Notes: generated by a model from the sequence alone, not told the origin. A DNA stretch of 32,000 bases from Candidatus Babelota bacterium (GCA_039809905.1 JBDHVY010000001.1:690001-722000); one strand, 5' to 3'; counted from the stretch's first letter, positions 2,906 to 7,291 are shown. Made by a program: numbers and translations.

Positions 2906-3448
2906 CTATTTTTTTCTAAACATTTCTGAAGCTTTGTTGAGCAAAGCATCATCATGTTGAGCTATCAACTGAGTTGCTTTTCTATACAACAATACAGCGA
3001 TTGCTGATACTTCAATTCCTGCAACGAATGCGTAGATATTTTGCTCTTTTCTTTTATTTTCTGCTAATTTATTTTCATAATTTTTGTTTTCTGCAGCCCA
3101 TTCTTGGTCACGTTTTTCAGCCGCAGCTTTTTCTTCTGCTTGAGCAGCTAATTCGTCGACCATTTTTTGTGTTAATGCAGCTATTTTTGCATCCATAGTT
3201 GCATCGGAATTGATTATTCTTGCAATAGTGATAATCACTGTATCATTAGTATCATAAATGCTGTTGATAGAATTAATTTTGTTTTCTAACCATTGAGCAA
3301 CTTTTTGTGCTTCAGTACCTAATTTTTGTGCAAAATCTAAGATCTGTGTGATTTCTGTTTTCAAAACAGCGCCATTGTATGCTTGTGCTACAGGTTGCAT
3401 GCTGAGACCAAAAAGAGCTGTCAGCAACAATTTTTTTGAAATATTCAT
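2906..3448 (-). CDS. Array paralog P1: signal peptide, helical domain, C-terminal TM anchor
   Basis: Start moved to MNISKKLL (GGAGG RBS 6 nt upstream; the tracked ATG overlaps that RBS). Motifs: KVAQWLENKINS, IITIARIINSDATMDAKI, TM segment IYAFVAGIEVSAIAVLLY. Confidence 0.75.
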   Translation of the reverse strand: MNISKKLLLTALFGLSMQPVAQAYNGAVLKTEITQILDFAQKLGTEAQKVAQWLENKINSINSIYDTNDTVIITIARIINSDATMDAKIAALTQKMVDELAAQAEEKAAAEKRDQEWAAENKNYENKLAENKRKEQNIYAFVAGIEVSAIAVLLYRKATQLIAQHDDALLNKASEMFRKK

Positions 3449-3489
3449 AAAAACCTCCATTTAACAATAATATACATTTACTTAGTTAT

Positions 3490-3518
3490 AAATTATCATT
3501 TTAAATTCAATCTGTAAA
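3490..3518 (-). promoter_or_regulatory. Conserved promoter of P1
   Basis: Minus strand reads TTTACA-17 nt-TAATTT with a TG-n extended -10 (aTGaTAATTT). The same layout occurs in the other cassette copies. Confidence 0.5.
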
Positions 3519-3551
3519 ATGGCTTAGTGATATGCTGATTGGATCGATATT

Positions 3552-3590
3552 CACATAAAAAAGCCCTGAATTTCAGGGCTTTTTTATGTG
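3552..3590. terminator. Terminator: 39-nt perfect palindrome downstream of P2
   Basis: CACATAAAAAAGCCCTGAA-T-TTCAGGGCTTTTTTATGTG. Confidence 0.75.
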
Positions 3591-3614
3591 AATATTTATG
3601 ATTGGTTTGCTCTA

Positions 3615-4127
3615 TTAGGCAAACCATCTTGTCTTAAAAATTTCTGACCATGTTGTCCGATTTAGAACTTGTTTGATTACAGCTGGATCGCGATGTTTTT
3701 CGGCCATACGCGCGATTATCCCAATGCAGCAAACGCCAGCAATAAATAGTGCAGCAGATCTATTGTTCTCAGCAATTTCTTGTTTTCCACATTCCTCAAC
3801 TGCTTTTTCAAAATCAGCTGCCTCTTGTATCATTTGTTTGCTAAGAAAGTCTATTTTTGTATCTATAGTTGTGTCGGCATTAATTATTCTTGCTGTAGTG
3901 ATAATGTTTATATCATTATCTCTATGGATGCTGTGACGAGAGGTAATTTTATCTTTTAACCATTGAGCAATTTTTTCTGCTTCAGGGCCATTTTGTTCGC
4001 ACTGATCAGCAAAATCTAAAACCTGTGTAACTTCTGCTTCTAGCTGAGCGACATTATATGCTTGTGCTATAGGCTGCATACCGAGACCAAAAAGAGCTAC
4101 TATCAATAAATTTTTTACCGTATTCAT
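3615..4127 (-). CDS. Array paralog P2
   Basis: Start at MNTVKNLL (GGAG RBS). Motifs: KIAQWLKDKITS, IITTARIINADTTIDTKI, TM segment ALFIAGVCCIGIIA, C-terminal TTWSEIFKTRWFA. Confidence 0.75.
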   Translation of the reverse strand: MNTVKNLLIVALFGLGMQPIAQAYNVAQLEAEVTQVLDFADQCEQNGPEAEKIAQWLKDKITSRHSIHRDNDINIITTARIINADTTIDTKIDFLSKQMIQEAADFEKAVEECGKQEIAENNRSAALFIAGVCCIGIIARMAEKHRDPAVIKQVLNRTTWSEIFKTRWFA

Positions 4128-4148
4128 AAAAATCTCCATTTTTTTGTA

Positions 4149-4643
4149 TTATGCAAACAATTTGTTTTTAAAGATATCTGACCATGGTGTCTTAGTTATA
4201 ATATGGTTGGTTAACCTATCATTGTAAAACTCGATCATATGGCTTATTGGTTTAATAAGGCAAACGCAAATAGTAAGAGCTATACCGGCGTTAACAAATC
4301 GCATTGTAGACTTAAAAGCTTCTCTTTGTGCTTGAGCAGCGAGATCTTTTGCCATTTGTTTGCTCAGAACGTCTATTTTTGTATCCATAGGTGTGTTAGC
4401 AGTAATTGTTCTTGCTATGGTGATAATCTCTATGTCTTGAGTAGGATAGTTGTCAGAGGTAGAATTAATTTTATCTTCTAGCCATTGAGCAACTTTTTGT
4501 GCTTCAGCATCTTTTTCTTTGCAAACAGCTGCAAAATCTAAAATTGATCCGACTTTTGTTTTTAGTGCAATTGCATCATATGCTTGTGCTTGCATGCTGA
4601 AACCAAAAAGAGCGGTCATCAACAATTTTCTTGAAATATTCAT
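4149..4643 (-). CDS. Array paralog P3
   Basis: MNISRKLLMTALFGFSMQAQA, KVAQWLEDKINS, IITIARTITANTPMDTKI, TM segment AGIALTICVCLI, C-terminal TPWSDIFKNKLFA. AGGAG RBS. Lies 21 nt upstream of P2, so the two are probably co-transcribed. Confidence 0.75.
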   Translation of the reverse strand: MNISRKLLMTALFGFSMQAQAYDAIALKTKVGSILDFAAVCKEKDAEAQKVAQWLEDKINSTSDNYPTQDIEIITIARTITANTPMDTKIDVLSKQMAKDLAAQAQREAFKSTMRFVNAGIALTICVCLIKPISHMIEFYNDRLTNHIITKTPWSDIFKNKLFA

Positions 4644-4683
4644 AAAAAACTCCTGTTTTTAAACAATATATTTACTTAATTAT

Positions 4684-5370: not shown

Positions 5371-5406
5371 CCGATATGGCGATATGCCCATTGGATCGAT
5401 ATAATT

Positions 5407-5435
5407 AAAAAAAGCCCTGGGTTTCAGGGCTTTTA
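5407..5435. terminator. Terminator downstream of the 145-aa gene
   Basis: aaaaaaAGCCCTGggtttCAGGGCTtttaa. Confidence 0.65.
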
Positions 5436-5461
5436 ATAAGATATTTGCGGAGTTAACGTGC

Positions 5462-5899
5462 TTATTCAAGTATTAATAGGGCTTGTTTTGGATAGCCTAT
5501 TTGCGTTGCATTGATGTTTGCAGGAACAAAGCGTGTTTTTTTCCAGCTTTTATAAACAGTGTGCTTAAATGCCTTATAAAGTTGGCGGGCGGTTCTATAT
5601 GTTGTTTTATCACCATCTTTTAAGCTTACAGCTGCATATTTAAGTTGTTTTACAATAGCTTTAAGAGCAGCTCTTTGTAATGGATATAATAAATCTGTAT
5701 AGCTATCTTTCCAATAAAGGCCACCTTCTTTATTAATCTTATTTTCCAATTCTTGGGCTGTGTTATCAAGGGCATTTTGTGCCTGCACTAGGAATGGATT
5801 AAGTAAGCTTGGATCAAATCCTTCCATAGAAACTGCGCTCATAAAAGTTGCCATAGATGCTAACATGCTAGCTAATAATATTTTTTTTAAAATAGTCAT
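5462..5899 (-). CDS. Secreted protein, distant member of the array family (no C-terminal TM)
   Basis: Signal peptide MTILKKILLASMLASMATFMSA. NTAQELENKINKEG resembles the KVAQWLENKINS core. AAGGA RBS. Confidence 0.6.
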   Translation of the reverse strand: MTILKKILLASMLASMATFMSAVSMEGFDPSLLNPFLVQAQNALDNTAQELENKINKEGGLYWKDSYTDLLYPLQRAALKAIVKQLKYAAVSLKDGDKTTYRTARQLYKAFKHTVYKSWKKTRFVPANINATQIGYPKQALLILE

Positions 5900-5935
5900 A
5901 ATAATCCTTATAGTTATTGTAATATTAAAGTGAAC

Positions 5936-6424
5936 TTATGCAAAAAATTGTATGCTGGTAGATGTTGTTCGATTAAATATTTCTCGACCAAATAAACTGA
6001 TTGATTTAGTTACTGTTCGTGCACGATGAGTGTTTTTATAAAGTAAAGTTAAACCTCCGGTTAATAATGTTATGAACAAAGCACTACCTGCAATACTGGC
6101 GATTGCTTCATTCTTTTTATCAATAGCTTCTTTTTCCATTGTTTGAGAAAAAATGGTTATTTTTGATTCAGTTGTTAATTCAGAATTGTTTATGATGTTC
6201 GCTATAGTAATTTCATCGTTGCTTACATAATTATTACTCATGACCTTTGCATTAAGCCATTGTGCAATAATATCAGCTTTAGCGATATTGCATCCATGCA
6301 AACCTTGAGTAAAATTGACGATTGTTGTTTTATGAGCAAATTCATTGATATTATTAGCTTGAGTAACAAACTGTACACCAAAAACTAAAGTAATCATGAG
6401 TGATAGTTTTTTGGAAATAGTCAT
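5936..6424 (-). CDS. Array paralog P5
   Basis: Start moved to MTISKKLSL (AGGAG RBS; the adjacent ATG at 6427 is equally possible). Motifs: IIAQWLNAKVMS, NIINNSELTTESKITIF (identical block to P4), TM segment ALFITLLTGGLTLLY. Confidence 0.75.
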   Translation of the reverse strand: MTISKKLSLMITLVFGVQFVTQANNINEFAHKTTIVNFTQGLHGCNIAKADIIAQWLNAKVMSNNYVSNDEITIANIINNSELTTESKITIFSQTMEKEAIDKKNEAIASIAGSALFITLLTGGLTLLYKNTHRARTVTKSISLFGREIFNRTTSTSIQFFA

Positions 6425-6454
6425 CATTAAATCTCCTAATATCATTATTATATT

Positions 6455-6967
6455 TTACTTTGCTTTCGAAATAAGACATGCGAATGCTAAGAAAGTTGCA
6501 GCAGCACCAGCATCTCTTATTGCGTTGTACCAAAATTGTCTATCTACGACACGTTTTGCTTCACTAAGTTCATTTTCTTTTTGTTGAGCTTCATCTTTTC
6601 GTTGTTGAGCGTATCGTTGATCGTACTTATCTGATTGTGCTTTATTTTCGGCTTCTGCTTTTTCAGTAGATTCTTTATCTTTTAAAATATAATGTATTTT
6701 TTCTTCAAGTGTGATTTTGGCATCAAGTATCATTATTATCTTATCAAAAATATAGTATTGATACATGCCCGAACGGAATAAGTGGTTCTCTAACCATTGT
6801 TGAGCAATTTGAGCGTCAGCACTATTTTGCTGACGTAAGCTTAATGCGAAATTAAAAACGCGTTGTTTCTTTGCTTGCTCATGATCATAATACTCGTTTG
6901 CCTTCATATTTGCTTGTGAGCCAATAATCAGCGCTGTAATTAAAAACAGCTTTTTTGAAATAGTCAT
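6455..6967 (-). CDS. Array paralog P6 (most divergent; long charged coiled-coil-like insert)
   Basis: MTISKKLFLITALIIGSQA, QIAQQWLENHL, charged run EKAEAENKAQSDKYDQRYAQQRKDEAQQKENE, C-terminal hydrophobic AAATFLAFACLI. AGGAG RBS. Confidence 0.7.
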   Translation of the reverse strand: MTISKKLFLITALIIGSQANMKANEYYDHEQAKKQRVFNFALSLRQQNSADAQIAQQWLENHLFRSGMYQYYIFDKIIMILDAKITLEEKIHYILKDKESTEKAEAENKAQSDKYDQRYAQQRKDEAQQKENELSEAKRVVDRQFWYNAIRDAGAAATFLAFACLISKAK

Positions 6968-6982
6968 ATTAAAAACTCCTTA

Positions 6983-7291
6983 TTATTTTTTGGTAAAATT
7001 ATGAATTTTATCAAAAGCATTAAAAATGGAATAAGATCCTGCCAAGATAGCTATCGAAGCTGGAGTCTTAAGGAAATAGCGTGCTATGCGCGGATGGTAT
7101 TGTGCAGCATTACGACCTTTTAAATAAAGAGAGACTCCACTACCAGTAAATATTATACCCCAAGGTAACTCTGGATCTTTTGCAACAGGATTGATTTCGT
7201 TAAGTTTATTGATAATAGGATTGCTATCTGATGCTAGCAAACTTGCTGCCGACAAAAAAATAGCAAATAGTAACACTTTTGAAGCTTTCAT
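6983..7291 (-). CDS. Small secreted or membrane protein, first gene of the array transcription unit
   Basis: Signal peptide MKASKVLLFAIFLSAASLLA. AGAGG RBS. Lies 15 nt upstream of P6. The region upstream (7292-7380) looks like a divergent fourth copy of the cassette promoter (TTGACC-17 nt-TAACTT). Confidence 0.6.
   Translation of the reverse strand: MKASKVLLFAIFLSAASLLASDSNPIINKLNEINPVAKDPELPWGIIFTGSGVSLYLKGRNAAQYHPRIARYFLKTPASIAILAGSYSIFNAFDKIHNFTKK

What the first reader, a model, noticed from the sequence alone, without database searches (positions are those of the whole stretch)
2906..7291. Eight-gene tandem array of diversified small secreted proteins, most with a C-terminal membrane anchor
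Eight consecutive minus-strand genes of 102-180 aa all start with an M-x-ISKKL-type signal peptide. Seven of them share a core that I can align by eye: (A)QWL(E/N)xK(I/V), and, in the five core paralogs P1-P5, (I)ITIAxIIN...T...KI about 15-20 residues downstream. Six end with one hydrophobic TM-length segment plus a short tail. P2 and P3 share a TPWSDIFKNKLFA-type C-terminus, and P4 and P5 share the identical block NIINNSELTTESKITIF. The region between the conserved core and the TM varies strongly in length and charge; P1 and P6 carry long E/K/Q coiled-coil-like inserts. This looks like a locally expanding, diversifying surface or periplasm-exposed family. I recognise no domain. In a presumably host-associated bacterium, such arrays are candidates for host-interaction or envelope-variation functions.
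Basis: partly seen in the sequence, partly recalled or inferred. Interest (0 to 1): 0.75.

Follow-up and report, generated by a model that had tools for sequence, protein, structure and literature searches.

The report
Tandem small exported membrane-protein family, Babeliales
Six of the eight flagged genes are old tandem copies of an undescribed family of small exported proteins with a four-helix head and a membrane tail. The family is found only in Babeliales (obligate intracellular parasites of protists), always between the same two housekeeping genes. It is real and fast-evolving, but it is an ordinary kind of thing for these bacteria.

Summary
The eight minus-strand ORFs exist exactly as described, in a Babeliales (Dependentiae/TM6) genome.

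**What is confirmed**
- Only six of the eight (P1-P6) are homologous. Px belongs to a separate small family, and P8 is an orphan.
- The six share one architecture: Sec signal peptide (AQA|Y), a four-helix head of about 85 aa (AF2 pLDDT 86), a helical stalk of variable length, one moderately hydrophobic C-terminal segment, and a tail.
- The family has 177 cluster representatives among 1.84 billion proteins. It has no Pfam, NCBIfam, PHROG or PADLOC hit and no significant structural match.
- In six independent loci it lies upstream of truA, and in five of them between rpsR and truA, with 2 to 8 copies.
- The copies carry a conserved terminator, promoter and leader module.

**What is not supported**
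- Paralogs in this genome are old (dS 0.65 or more).
- dN/dS is 0.3-0.7, and orthologs change 3-6 times faster than truA. This indicates relaxed purifying selection, and I found no evidence of positive selection.
- The identical block shared by P4 and P5 carries synonymous differences, so it is not a recent gene-conversion tract.

**Most likely reading:** type I inner-membrane proteins with periplasmic heads. The function is unknown. Surface exposure or contact with the host is not shown.

The parts
2906..3448 (-). P1, family member (subfamily A), 180 aa. It has a signal peptide, a four-helix head, a long E/K/Q/A-rich helical stalk, a marginal TM and a 26-aa tail.
   Evidence: HMM 7.5e-42; AF2 pLDDT 80.6.
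3615..4127 (-). P2, family member (subfamily A), 170 aa. Its C-terminus is WSEIFKTRWFA.
   Evidence: (2.2e-42). The ortholog in L011 is 80% identical.
4149..4643 (-). P3, family member (subfamily A), 164 aa. Its C-terminus is WSDIFKNKLFA.
   Evidence: (5.5e-39). The ortholog in L011 is 67% identical.
4800..5300 (-). P4, family member (subfamily B), 166 aa. It has the most hydrophobic TM of the six.
   Evidence: 5e-40; head model pLDDT 86, pTM 0.77; dG about -1.35.
5462..5899 (-). Px, 145 aa, NOT a family member. It is a secreted-type protein without a TM. It belongs to a separate small family and shares only the MTI(L/S)KK leader.
   Evidence: E=0.8; 7 homologs; ortholog inside the L007 array, 2e-25; hhalign matches the leader only.
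5936..6427 (-). P5, family member (subfamily B), 162-163 aa.
   Evidence: P0007; 4.4e-38.
6455..6967 (-). P6, family member (subfamily C), 170 aa. It has a long charged stalk, and its weakly hydrophobic segment sits at the extreme C-terminus (…FLAFACLISKAK).
   Evidence: 3.4e-32; P6-P1 45 bits against a shuffled maximum of 28.5.
6983..7291 (-). P8, 102 aa, NOT a family member. It is an orphan with a signal-peptide-like N-terminus.
   Evidence: E=4.5; one homolog only, 82% identical; dN/dS 0.43 against that homolog.
2835..2869 (.). GC-stem hairpin AAAAAGCCCTGA..TCAGGGCTTTTT, terminator-like in both directions, downstream of P1.
   Evidence: D15, I5.
3549..3593 (.). A copy of the same terminator-like hairpin, downstream of P2.
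4745..4775 (.). A degenerate copy of the hairpin, downstream of P4.
   Evidence: (I7).
5406..5440 (.). A copy of the hairpin, downstream of Px.
3493..3551 (-). Conserved upstream module of P1: box1 ATATCGATCCAAT plus the promoter-like box2 TTTACAnAyTGAATTTAAAATGATAA.
4687..4745 (-). The same upstream module in front of P3.
5345..5403 (-). The same upstream module in front of P4.

Best explanation
P1-P6 are six old tandem paralogs of a family restricted to Babeliales.

**Architecture (shown).** Each protein has five parts:
- a classical Sec signal peptide: a KK n-region, an h-region of about 10 residues, an A-Q-A|Y signal peptidase I site and no lipobox cysteine;
- a compact four-helix head of about 85 residues, whose conserved residues are hydrophobic or structural (F, W-L, I-I, K-I) with no catalytic-type set;
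- a continuous helix that serves as a stalk of very variable length, from about 10 to 55 residues, E/K/Q-rich in P1 and P6;
- one moderately hydrophobic segment;
- a tail of 1 to 40 residues.

**Inferred mechanism.**
- Sec exports the head.
- Signal peptidase I removes the leader.
- The hydrophobic segment stops transfer.
- The result is a type I bitopic inner-membrane protein, with a non-enzymatic binding head held in the periplasm at a paralog-specific height and a short cytoplasmic tail.

**Evolution (shown).**
- The array grew by duplicating a unit made of terminator hairpin, promoter-like box, ribosome-binding site, leader and coding sequence.
- It sits at a fixed site between rpsR and truA.
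- It follows a birth-and-death pattern: three subfamilies are conserved in the same order across relatives, and each lineage has its own duplications and losses.
- Protein sequences change 3-6 times faster than the neighbouring housekeeping gene, under relaxed purifying selection.

**Biological role (not shown).** The most likely role is at the envelope or the host interface of an obligate intracellular parasite.
For: **Homology**
- Pairwise BLASTP E-values range from 1e-42 to 8e-3 for full-length proteins. Mature regions alone remain significantly linked.
- The family HMM hits only these six ORFs in the 32-kb window.

**Distribution**
- 20 hits among 5.8 billion proteins, of which 6 come from the source genome.
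- 177 cluster-50 representatives at E<=1e-3 among 1.84 billion proteins, all 58-231 aa.

**Architecture across the family**
- 148 of 161 proteins have a signal-peptide-like N-terminus.
- 133 of 161 have a hydrophobic segment in the C-terminal half, with a median tail of 31 aa.

**Fold**
- AF2 full-length P1 model: pLDDT 80.6, with helices at 26-42, 45-60, 68-80 and 85-179.
- AF2 P4 head model with 148 sequences: pLDDT 86.4, pTM 0.77, four helices.

**Synteny and copy number**
-.

**Duplication unit**
- The terminator hairpin is repeated four times.
- The upstream regions of P1, P3 and P4 are 73-75% identical. Their coding sequences are only 50-66% identical.
- The promoter-like box is also present in front of family genes in L007, L008, L011 and L014.

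**Evolutionary rates**
- Paralogs: dS 0.65 to saturation, dN/dS 0.3-0.7.
- Orthologs against L011: dN 0.13-0.29, compared with 0.05 for truA. dN/dS is 0.38-0.73 compared with 0.11.
- Regional dN/dS is 0.34-0.73.
- An NJ tree shows colinear subfamilies.

**Context from the literature**
- Dependentiae have Sec and a type II secretion system as their only detected export routes.
- They carry very large complements of signal-peptide ORFans and many tandem duplications (PMC4378268, PMC6561590, PMC4776705).
Against: - No dedicated signal-peptide or topology predictor could be run. Cleavage and topology rest on heuristics and on reading the sequence.
- The C-terminal hydrophobic segment is Ala/Gly/Thr-rich and only marginally hydrophobic in P1, P3 and P6 (approximate dG +3.3 to +5.9). 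Across the family, only 34 of 154 proteins score below 0.
- Residues just after the segment carry little net positive charge (+0.35 on average). Stop-transfer is therefore not assured, and some members may be soluble.
- Nothing links the family to any partner or process. The neighbours are housekeeping genes.
- The tree has no support values.
- The dN/dS values are pairwise Nei-Gojobori estimates on short, partly saturated sequences.
Confidence: 0.5

Rival explanations
1. **Exported effectors.** After Sec export, the weakly hydrophobic C-terminal segment is not retained in the inner membrane. The proteins leave the cell through the type II secretion system or outer-membrane vesicles. They then insert, tail-anchor fashion, into the host vacuolar or organelle membrane. 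The head and stalk act as a tether or as a mimic of a host coiled-coil protein.
For: - Hydrophobicity is marginal in many members, and P6-type proteins end right after the segment, like tail-anchored proteins.
- Dependentiae are thought to secrete many signal-peptide proteins into the host, and vesicles have been seen in C. destructans (PMC6561590, PMC4378268).
- The protein sequences evolve fast.
Against: - No secretion-system link or host-targeting motif was found.
- Type II secretion substrates are normally soluble folded proteins.
- P4, P5, P2 and many relatives have segments hydrophobic enough to stop transfer.
- There is no SNARE, syntaxin or Inc signal in Pfam or Foldseek.
- dN/dS is below 1 everywhere.
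Confidence: 0.2
2. **Uncleaved leader.** The N-terminal hydrophobic stretch is a signal anchor. The proteins are then two-TM hairpins with a periplasmic four-helix loop domain, as in the sensor domains of chemoreceptors and kinases, but with no output domain.
For: - The order hydrophobic segment, four-helix domain, hydrophobic segment resembles sensor topology.
- I could not run a cleavage predictor.
Against: - The h-region is short, about 10 residues.
- It is followed by a conserved small-x-small site (AQA|Y, TQA|Y/N), which is typical of cleaved leaders.
- Pfam shows no similarity to 4HB_MCP or other sensor domains.
Confidence: 0.1
3. **Immunity or protection array.** The genes are a set of diversified periplasmic immunity-like proteins against envelope-targeting toxins or host antimicrobial factors.
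For: Tandem arrays of small, diversified, exported proteins are typical of orphan immunity clusters (established knowledge). In relative L017, a PT-HINT protein lies near the locus.
Against: - No toxin gene is in or next to the array in the window or in five other loci.
- There is no PADLOC or Pfam immunity match.
- The location between housekeeping genes is vertically inherited, and there are no mobile-element features.
Confidence: 0.05
4. **Non-functional ORFs.** The ORFs are decaying duplicates that are not expressed as proteins.
For: dN/dS is elevated relative to the neighbouring genes.
Against: - All reading frames are intact, each with its own ribosome-binding site.
- dN/dS is clearly below 1.
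- A 17-aa block is kept identical despite synonymous change.
- The architecture is conserved in 133-148 of 161 family members.
- The promoter box is conserved across lineages.
Confidence: 0.02

Closest known systems
Lineage-specific tandemly expanded families of predicted secreted or membrane proteins in Dependentiae (Babela massiliensis, Chromulinavorax destructans)
   Same: - The same phylum and lifestyle.
- Signal-peptide ORFans with no known domain.
- Tandem duplication: 37 tandem duplications in B. massiliensis, and 44% of coding sequences with signal peptides in C. destructans (PMC4378268, PMC6561590).
   Different: - This particular family, its four-helix head and its fixed rpsR-truA location did not turn up in the papers I found and searched.
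Phytoplasma immunodominant membrane proteins of the Amp type
   Same: The architecture: a cleavable signal peptide, a hydrophilic exported domain, one C-terminal TM and a short tail, with fast evolution in a host-dependent bacterium (my own knowledge, not tested here).
   Different: - Phytoplasmas have no outer membrane, so Amp is truly surface-exposed. Babeliales are diderm.
- Amp is single-copy and under positive selection. Here the family is a multi-copy array with dN/dS below 1.
- No sequence comparison was made.
Staphylococcus aureus tandem lipoprotein (lpl) cluster, with an evolutionary unit spanning two adjacent genes (PMC2568036)
   Same: A tandem cluster of exported paralogs in which the intergenic region plus the 5' leader is conserved as a unit, better than the body of the gene.
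   Different: - The lpl proteins are lipoproteins with a lipobox. The proteins here have an AxA signal peptidase I site and no cysteine.
- The folds are unrelated, and the organisms are unrelated.
Plasmodium ETRAMP (PF09716) and Chlamydia Inc / SNARE-like proteins
   Same: Small multi-copy families in intracellular parasites with a signal or hydrophobic segment plus charged or coiled-coil regions. ETRAMP gave the only recurring weak Pfam hits.
   Different: - ETRAMP scores of 11-13 bits are far below the 29.1-bit cut-off, and only 1 of 148 members matched at E<0.01.
- There is no bilobed hydrophobic domain and no SNARE or IncA match.
- The Foldseek match to the syntaxin Habc domain has E=4.7.

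Membership tests
The P1-P6 family itself (undescribed, Babeliales-restricted) | Significant similarity in the mature region, with the F..A...AQWL..(I)ITIAxIIN...T.E.KI core | tested here: met
   Met for P1-P6. Not met for Px (E=0.8; hhalign matches the leader only) or for P8 (E=4.5).
Sec / signal peptidase I-exported proteins | A positively charged n-region, a hydrophobic h-region and a small-x-small cleavage site, with no lipobox cysteine | tested here: met
   Read from the sequence and a heuristic. 148 of 161 family members pass. No dedicated predictor was available.
Type I bitopic membrane proteins | One stop-transfer TM after the exported domain, with positively charged cytoplasmic flanks | tested here: inconclusive
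   By Kyte-Doolittle, a segment is present in P1-P6. On the Hessa-type scale it is clear for P4, P5 and P2, and marginal for P1, P3 and P6. The flanking charge is weak.
Any Pfam, NCBIfam, PHROG or PADLOC family | A score above the curated cut-off | tested here: not met
   No hit came near a cut-off, and no family recurred among the 148 members.
Known protein folds (PDB, BFVD) | A significant structural match to the head domain | tested here: not met
ETRAMP (PF09716) | A Pfam gathering score of 29.1 bits | tested here: not met
   11.4-13 bits in P4 and P8. One of 148 members matched at E=0.004.
Bacterial lipoprotein tandem clusters (lpl-like) | A lipobox L-[AS]-[GA]-C at the end of the leader | tested here: not met
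   No cysteine in the first 30 residues of P1-P6. The site reads AQA|Y or TQA|Y/N.
C-terminal sorting-signal substrates (PEP-CTERM, GlyGly-CTERM, LPXTG) | A signature motif, then a TM, then a basic cluster at the extreme C-terminus | tested here: not met
   No NCBIfam sorting-signal model hit. Only P6-type members end just after the hydrophobic segment, and most have 26-40-aa tails.
Type IV pilins / pseudopilins | A short leader ending in G, followed by F/M-x-x-x-E | tested here: not met
   The motif is absent from all eight N-termini.
Genes under positive or diversifying selection | dN/dS above 1, gene-wide or in a region | tested here: not met
   Pairwise dN/dS is 0.26-0.73 and regional dN/dS is 0.34-0.73. 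Site models were not run.

The most novel reading that the evidence does not exclude
The conserved terminator-promoter-RBS-'MTISKKL' leader module is a dedicated expression and export cassette for a co-regulated effector set. Under this reading:
- the module is better conserved than the genes it drives, and it is shared with non-homologous neighbours (Px, the gene upstream of rpsF, and extra genes in L007);
- the locus acts as a nursery where new exported proteins arise behind the same module;
- the P1-P6 proteins leave the bacterium and anchor by their weakly hydrophobic tails in host membranes, with the four-helix head on a variable-length stalk acting as a tether or mimic.
Probability: 0.1. 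Interest if true: 0.65.

Novelty: new member of a known kind. Interest (0 to 1): 0.35.

Why it matters
- Dependentiae are widespread parasites of protists that are almost never cultured. Up to 44% of their genes encode signal-peptide proteins, mostly of unknown function.
- This locus gives a well-delimited example of how that exported repertoire is produced. It has a fixed hotspot, a clear duplication unit, colinear subfamilies and a confident head-domain model with no known relative.
- It is a usable handle for comparative genomics, for expression studies built on the conserved promoter box, and for localisation experiments in cultivable relatives.
- It does not by itself reveal a new mechanism.

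Tried and rejected
- **Genome-contig scan with the family alignment.** A3 matched 266 pattern sites, but none encoded a relative. The second scan, with PolA, only named the lineage, and I set its flank too short to reach the array.
- **Metagenome scan for the leader DNA (ATGACNATHTCNAARAARYT).** MTISKK-type n-regions occur sporadically elsewhere, so the 7-aa leader alone is no family marker. 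Within the window, however, it is confined to this locus: 6 matches against 0.17 expected.
- **Gene conversion.** Rejected for the P4/P5 block. Rejected for the upstream modules as well, because all three pairs are about equally 73-75% identical rather than nearly identical.
- **Px as a seventh member.** Rejected.
- **A Fic-gene remnant between rpsR and P8.** A Fic gene sits at the corresponding position in relative L016, but none was found here.
- **Other scans.** Rfam and tRNA scans of the window found nothing. Cluster look-up gave no names.

Full report
**1. What is in the sequence**

The window has about 34% G+C. Its DNA polymerase I is 74-83% identical to those of uncultured bacteria, one of them labelled Candidatus Babeliales. 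The source is therefore a Babeliales (Dependentiae/TM6) genome. The contig of 1,228,744 bp that carries the identical proteins fits the small genomes of this group.

The array is flanked by rpsF-rpsR on the upstream side (8471-7720) and by truA and a GNAT acetyltransferase on the downstream side (2803-1405). GGAG ribosome-binding sites lie 5-8 nt before the internal ATGs. Together with the database versions of the proteins, these support starts at 3448 (P1), 4127 (P2) and 6427/6424 (P5).

**2. Six paralogs, not eight**

- Full-length BLASTP links P1-P6 with E-values from 1e-42 to 8e-3.
- With the signal peptides removed, the six remain connected. Examples are P1-P2 2e-23, P2-P3 1e-29 and P4-P5 2e-26, with cross-links P1-P5, P2-P4, P2-P5 and P1-P6 near 5e-5 to 8e-5 for a database of 1e6 residues.
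- Observed scores exceed all 200 shuffles.
- An HMM built from 161 family proteins hits exactly these six ORFs in the whole window (1e-32 to 1e-42). It scores Px at E=0.8 and P8 at E=4.5.
- Px (5462-5899) has its own narrow family of 7 proteins. That family includes a positional ortholog inside the array of relative L007 (42% identity, 2e-25).
- A profile-profile comparison of the Px family with the main family aligns only the signal peptide (28 columns).
- P8 has a single homolog, 82% identical, with dN/dS of 0.43. It is probably a real but orphan gene.

These are the AQWL core, ITIAxIIN…K-I in P1-P5, the shared WS[DE]IFK..FA end of P2 and P3, the identical NIINNSELTTESKITIF in P4 and P5, and the E/K/Q inserts in P1 and P6.

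**3. Architecture**

- All six have a KK n-region, an h-region of about 10 residues and an A/T-Q-A|Y/N site, with no lipobox cysteine.
- Each has one hydrophobic stretch near the C-terminus, followed by 1-39 residues.
- Across the family, 148 of 161 proteins have such an N-terminus, and 133 of 161 have a hydrophobic segment in the C-terminal half. The median tail is 31 aa, and 46 proteins begin exactly with MTISKKL.
- On a Hessa-type scale the segment is convincingly membrane-spanning in P4 (-1.4), P5 (+0.7) and P2 (+1.5). It is marginal in P3 (+3.3), P1 (+4.0) and P6 (+5.9). Across the family, 34 of 154 score below 0 and 54 score between 0 and 2.
- AlphaFold2 models P1 as a signal helix, three short helices and one long helix that runs through the charged insert and the hydrophobic segment (pLDDT 80.6).
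- The isolated P4 head, modelled with 148 sequences, is a four-helix domain with pLDDT 86.4 and pTM 0.77.
- Conserved positions are hydrophobic or structural (F39, W53, L54, I72/73, K88, I89 in P1 numbering). There is no catalytic-looking set.

**4. No known relatives**

- Pfam, NCBIfam, PHROGs and PADLOC give nothing near threshold.
- Scanning 148 members one by one against Pfam finds no recurring family.
- A profile search against PDB sequences gives a best E of 0.14.
- Foldseek gives a best E of 1.4-1.7 against PDB and 0.37 against BFVD.
- The family is rare: 20 hits in 5.8 billion proteins and 177 cluster-50 representatives at E<=1e-3 in 1.84 billion, all of them small. No source gives them a name.

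**5. Genomic behaviour**

In six independent contexts the family lies immediately upstream of truA, and in five of them between rpsR and truA. Copy numbers are:

| Locus | Family genes | Notes |
|---|---|---|
| This window | 6 | plus Px and P8 |
| L007 | 8 | |
| L008 / L009 / L010 | 3 | |
| L014 | 4 | two GNAT genes are inserted |
| L011 | 3 | orthologs of P3, P2 and P1; the upstream side is rearranged |
| JGI contig without DNA | 2 candidates (one confirmed) | |

Only six hits come from the source genome's contig. I therefore see no members elsewhere in that genome, within the sensitivity of that search.

A rough NJ tree without support values groups the genes into three subfamilies:
- A: P1-P3, their L011 orthologs, L8_c, L7_h and L14_d.
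- B: P4, P5, L7_f, L7_g and L8_b.
- C: P6, L7_e, L14_a and L14_b.

The subfamilies lie in the same order along the loci. L007 also has a lineage-specific expansion, and its most recent duplicate pair has dS 0.27. This is a birth-and-death pattern at a fixed hotspot.

**6. The duplication unit and its regulation**

- A GC-stem hairpin (AAAAAGCCCTGAAATTCAGGGCTTTTT) recurs downstream of P1, P2, P4 and Px.
- This implies four transcription units: P8-P6-P5-Px, then P4, then P3-P2, then P1. The units are inferred from the sequence, not measured.
- The roughly 150 nt upstream of P1, P3 and P4 are 73-75% identical in all three pairs.
- Their coding sequences are only 66% (P1-P3), 54% (P1-P4) and 50% (P3-P4) identical, with dS of 0.67, 1.26 and 1.63.
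- A promoter-like box (TTTACAnnCTGAAnTTAAAATGATAw) is also found just upstream of family genes in L007, L008, L011 and L014. These lineages have saturated synonymous sites at truA.
- The non-coding module is therefore under its own constraint. The equal, moderate identities argue against recent gene conversion.

**7. Selection**

- Paralogs in this genome are old: dS is 0.65-0.81 for the closest pairs and saturated for the rest. dN/dS is 0.26-0.70.
- The P4/P5 identical 17-aa block contains 6 synonymous differences in 51 nt. It is kept by purifying selection, not by conversion.
- Against the close relative L011, truA is 92% identical (dN 0.05, omega 0.11). P1, P2 and P3 are 59%, 80% and 67% identical (dN 0.29, 0.13 and 0.21; omega 0.73, 0.48 and 0.38).
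- Pooled regional omega values are: signal peptide 0.47, head 0.58, stalk 0.73, TM 0.54, tail 0.34.
- The stalk also changes by insertions and deletions, for example an 18-residue difference between P1 and its ortholog.
- This is fast evolution under relaxed constraint. No positive selection is detectable at this resolution.

**8. A shared leader on unrelated proteins**

- The MTISKKL-type start, and even the preceding ribosome-binding-site region, is shared by non-homologous neighbours. These are Px, the gene upstream of rpsF (8719-9177), and several non-family genes in L007.
- In the window, the leader DNA occurs only at this locus: 6 matches with up to 2 mismatches, against 0.17 expected.
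- More than ten other signal-peptide proteins in the window use different leaders.
- The positional counterparts of the rpsF-upstream gene in L007 and L010 keep the leader and the overall layout of leader, TM and charged tail. They show no sequence similarity to each other.
- A metagenome-wide scan showed that the 7-residue motif alone also occurs sporadically in unrelated bacteria. It is therefore informative only in its local context.

**9. Interpretation**

The steps that are shown are the homology, architecture, fold prediction, synteny, duplication unit and rates.

The steps that are inferred are:
- Sec export and cleavage by signal peptidase I;
- retention as type I inner-membrane proteins, with the head in the periplasm on a stalk of paralog-specific length;
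- a non-enzymatic binding role.

Dependentiae are reported to have only Sec and a type II secretion system, a very large signal-peptide ORFan complement and many tandem duplications (PMC4378268, PMC4776705, PMC6561590). A family like this is therefore expected in kind, even though I did not find this particular one described.

The main rival is onward delivery to host membranes. The weak hydrophobicity of several members keeps it alive, but nothing positive supports it.

**10. Verdict**

It is not recently expanding here, it is not shown to be under diversifying selection, and its exposure to the host is untested. I rate it a new member of a known kind, of moderate to low interest.

Noticed in passing
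window 8719-9177 (-); L007 4057-4461; L010 1547-1915: The small gene just upstream of rpsF carries the same MAISKKIL/MTISKKL-type leader, a mid-protein Gly/Ala-rich TM and a charged tail. Its positional counterparts in two relatives keep the leader and the layout, but have no detectable sequence similarity to it or to each other.
   Followed up: partly
window 11480-12388 (+): A 302-aa protein with a signal-peptide-like N-terminus matches the PI3/PI4-kinase catalytic-loop region (PF00454, 22.8 bits, below the 27.1 cut-off; DRHHEN motif). It is a candidate secreted lipid-kinase-like effector.
   Followed up: partly
window 14886-15584 (+) and 17804-18439 (+): A second, dispersed pair of paralogs (41% identity, E 9e-47). 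Both have signal-peptide-like N-termini and Gly/Ala-rich C-terminal hydrophobic segments. Neither has a Pfam match.
   Followed up: partly
window 13854-14708 (-), 23392-23937 (-), 22366-25044 (-): Further predicted exported proteins: an endonuclease/exonuclease/phosphatase-family protein, a PEBP-family protein, and a run of small signal-peptide proteins, of which the two I scanned (22366-22881 and 24484-25044) have no Pfam match. The window is dense in signal-peptide ORFs.
   Followed up: partly
L016 2-526, compared with window 7292-7719: In a close relative, a Fic-domain gene (HPFANGNGRHAR) lies directly upstream of the P8 ortholog. The window has a 428-nt gap between rpsR and P8, with a terminator-like hairpin (7643-7674) and no Fic remnant by tblastn.
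   Followed up: yes
L011 1586-4202: In the closest relative with context, the P3/P2/P1 orthologs are preceded by three paralogous secreted proteins with a different leader (…GLFGAIGSRG…) and by secA. P4-P8 and rpsR are not there. This indicates a rearrangement or replacement at the hotspot.
   Followed up: no
L007 6287-7932: Four short family members (126-132 aa) form an a-b-a'-b' pattern. Pair a/a' is 87% identical (dS 0.27). This is a more recent duplication of a two-gene unit in that lineage.
   Followed up: yes
window 9395-10147 (-): A LexA-like repressor (HTH plus Peptidase_S24) is conserved next to rpsF and RNase HII in all the related loci examined.
   Followed up: no
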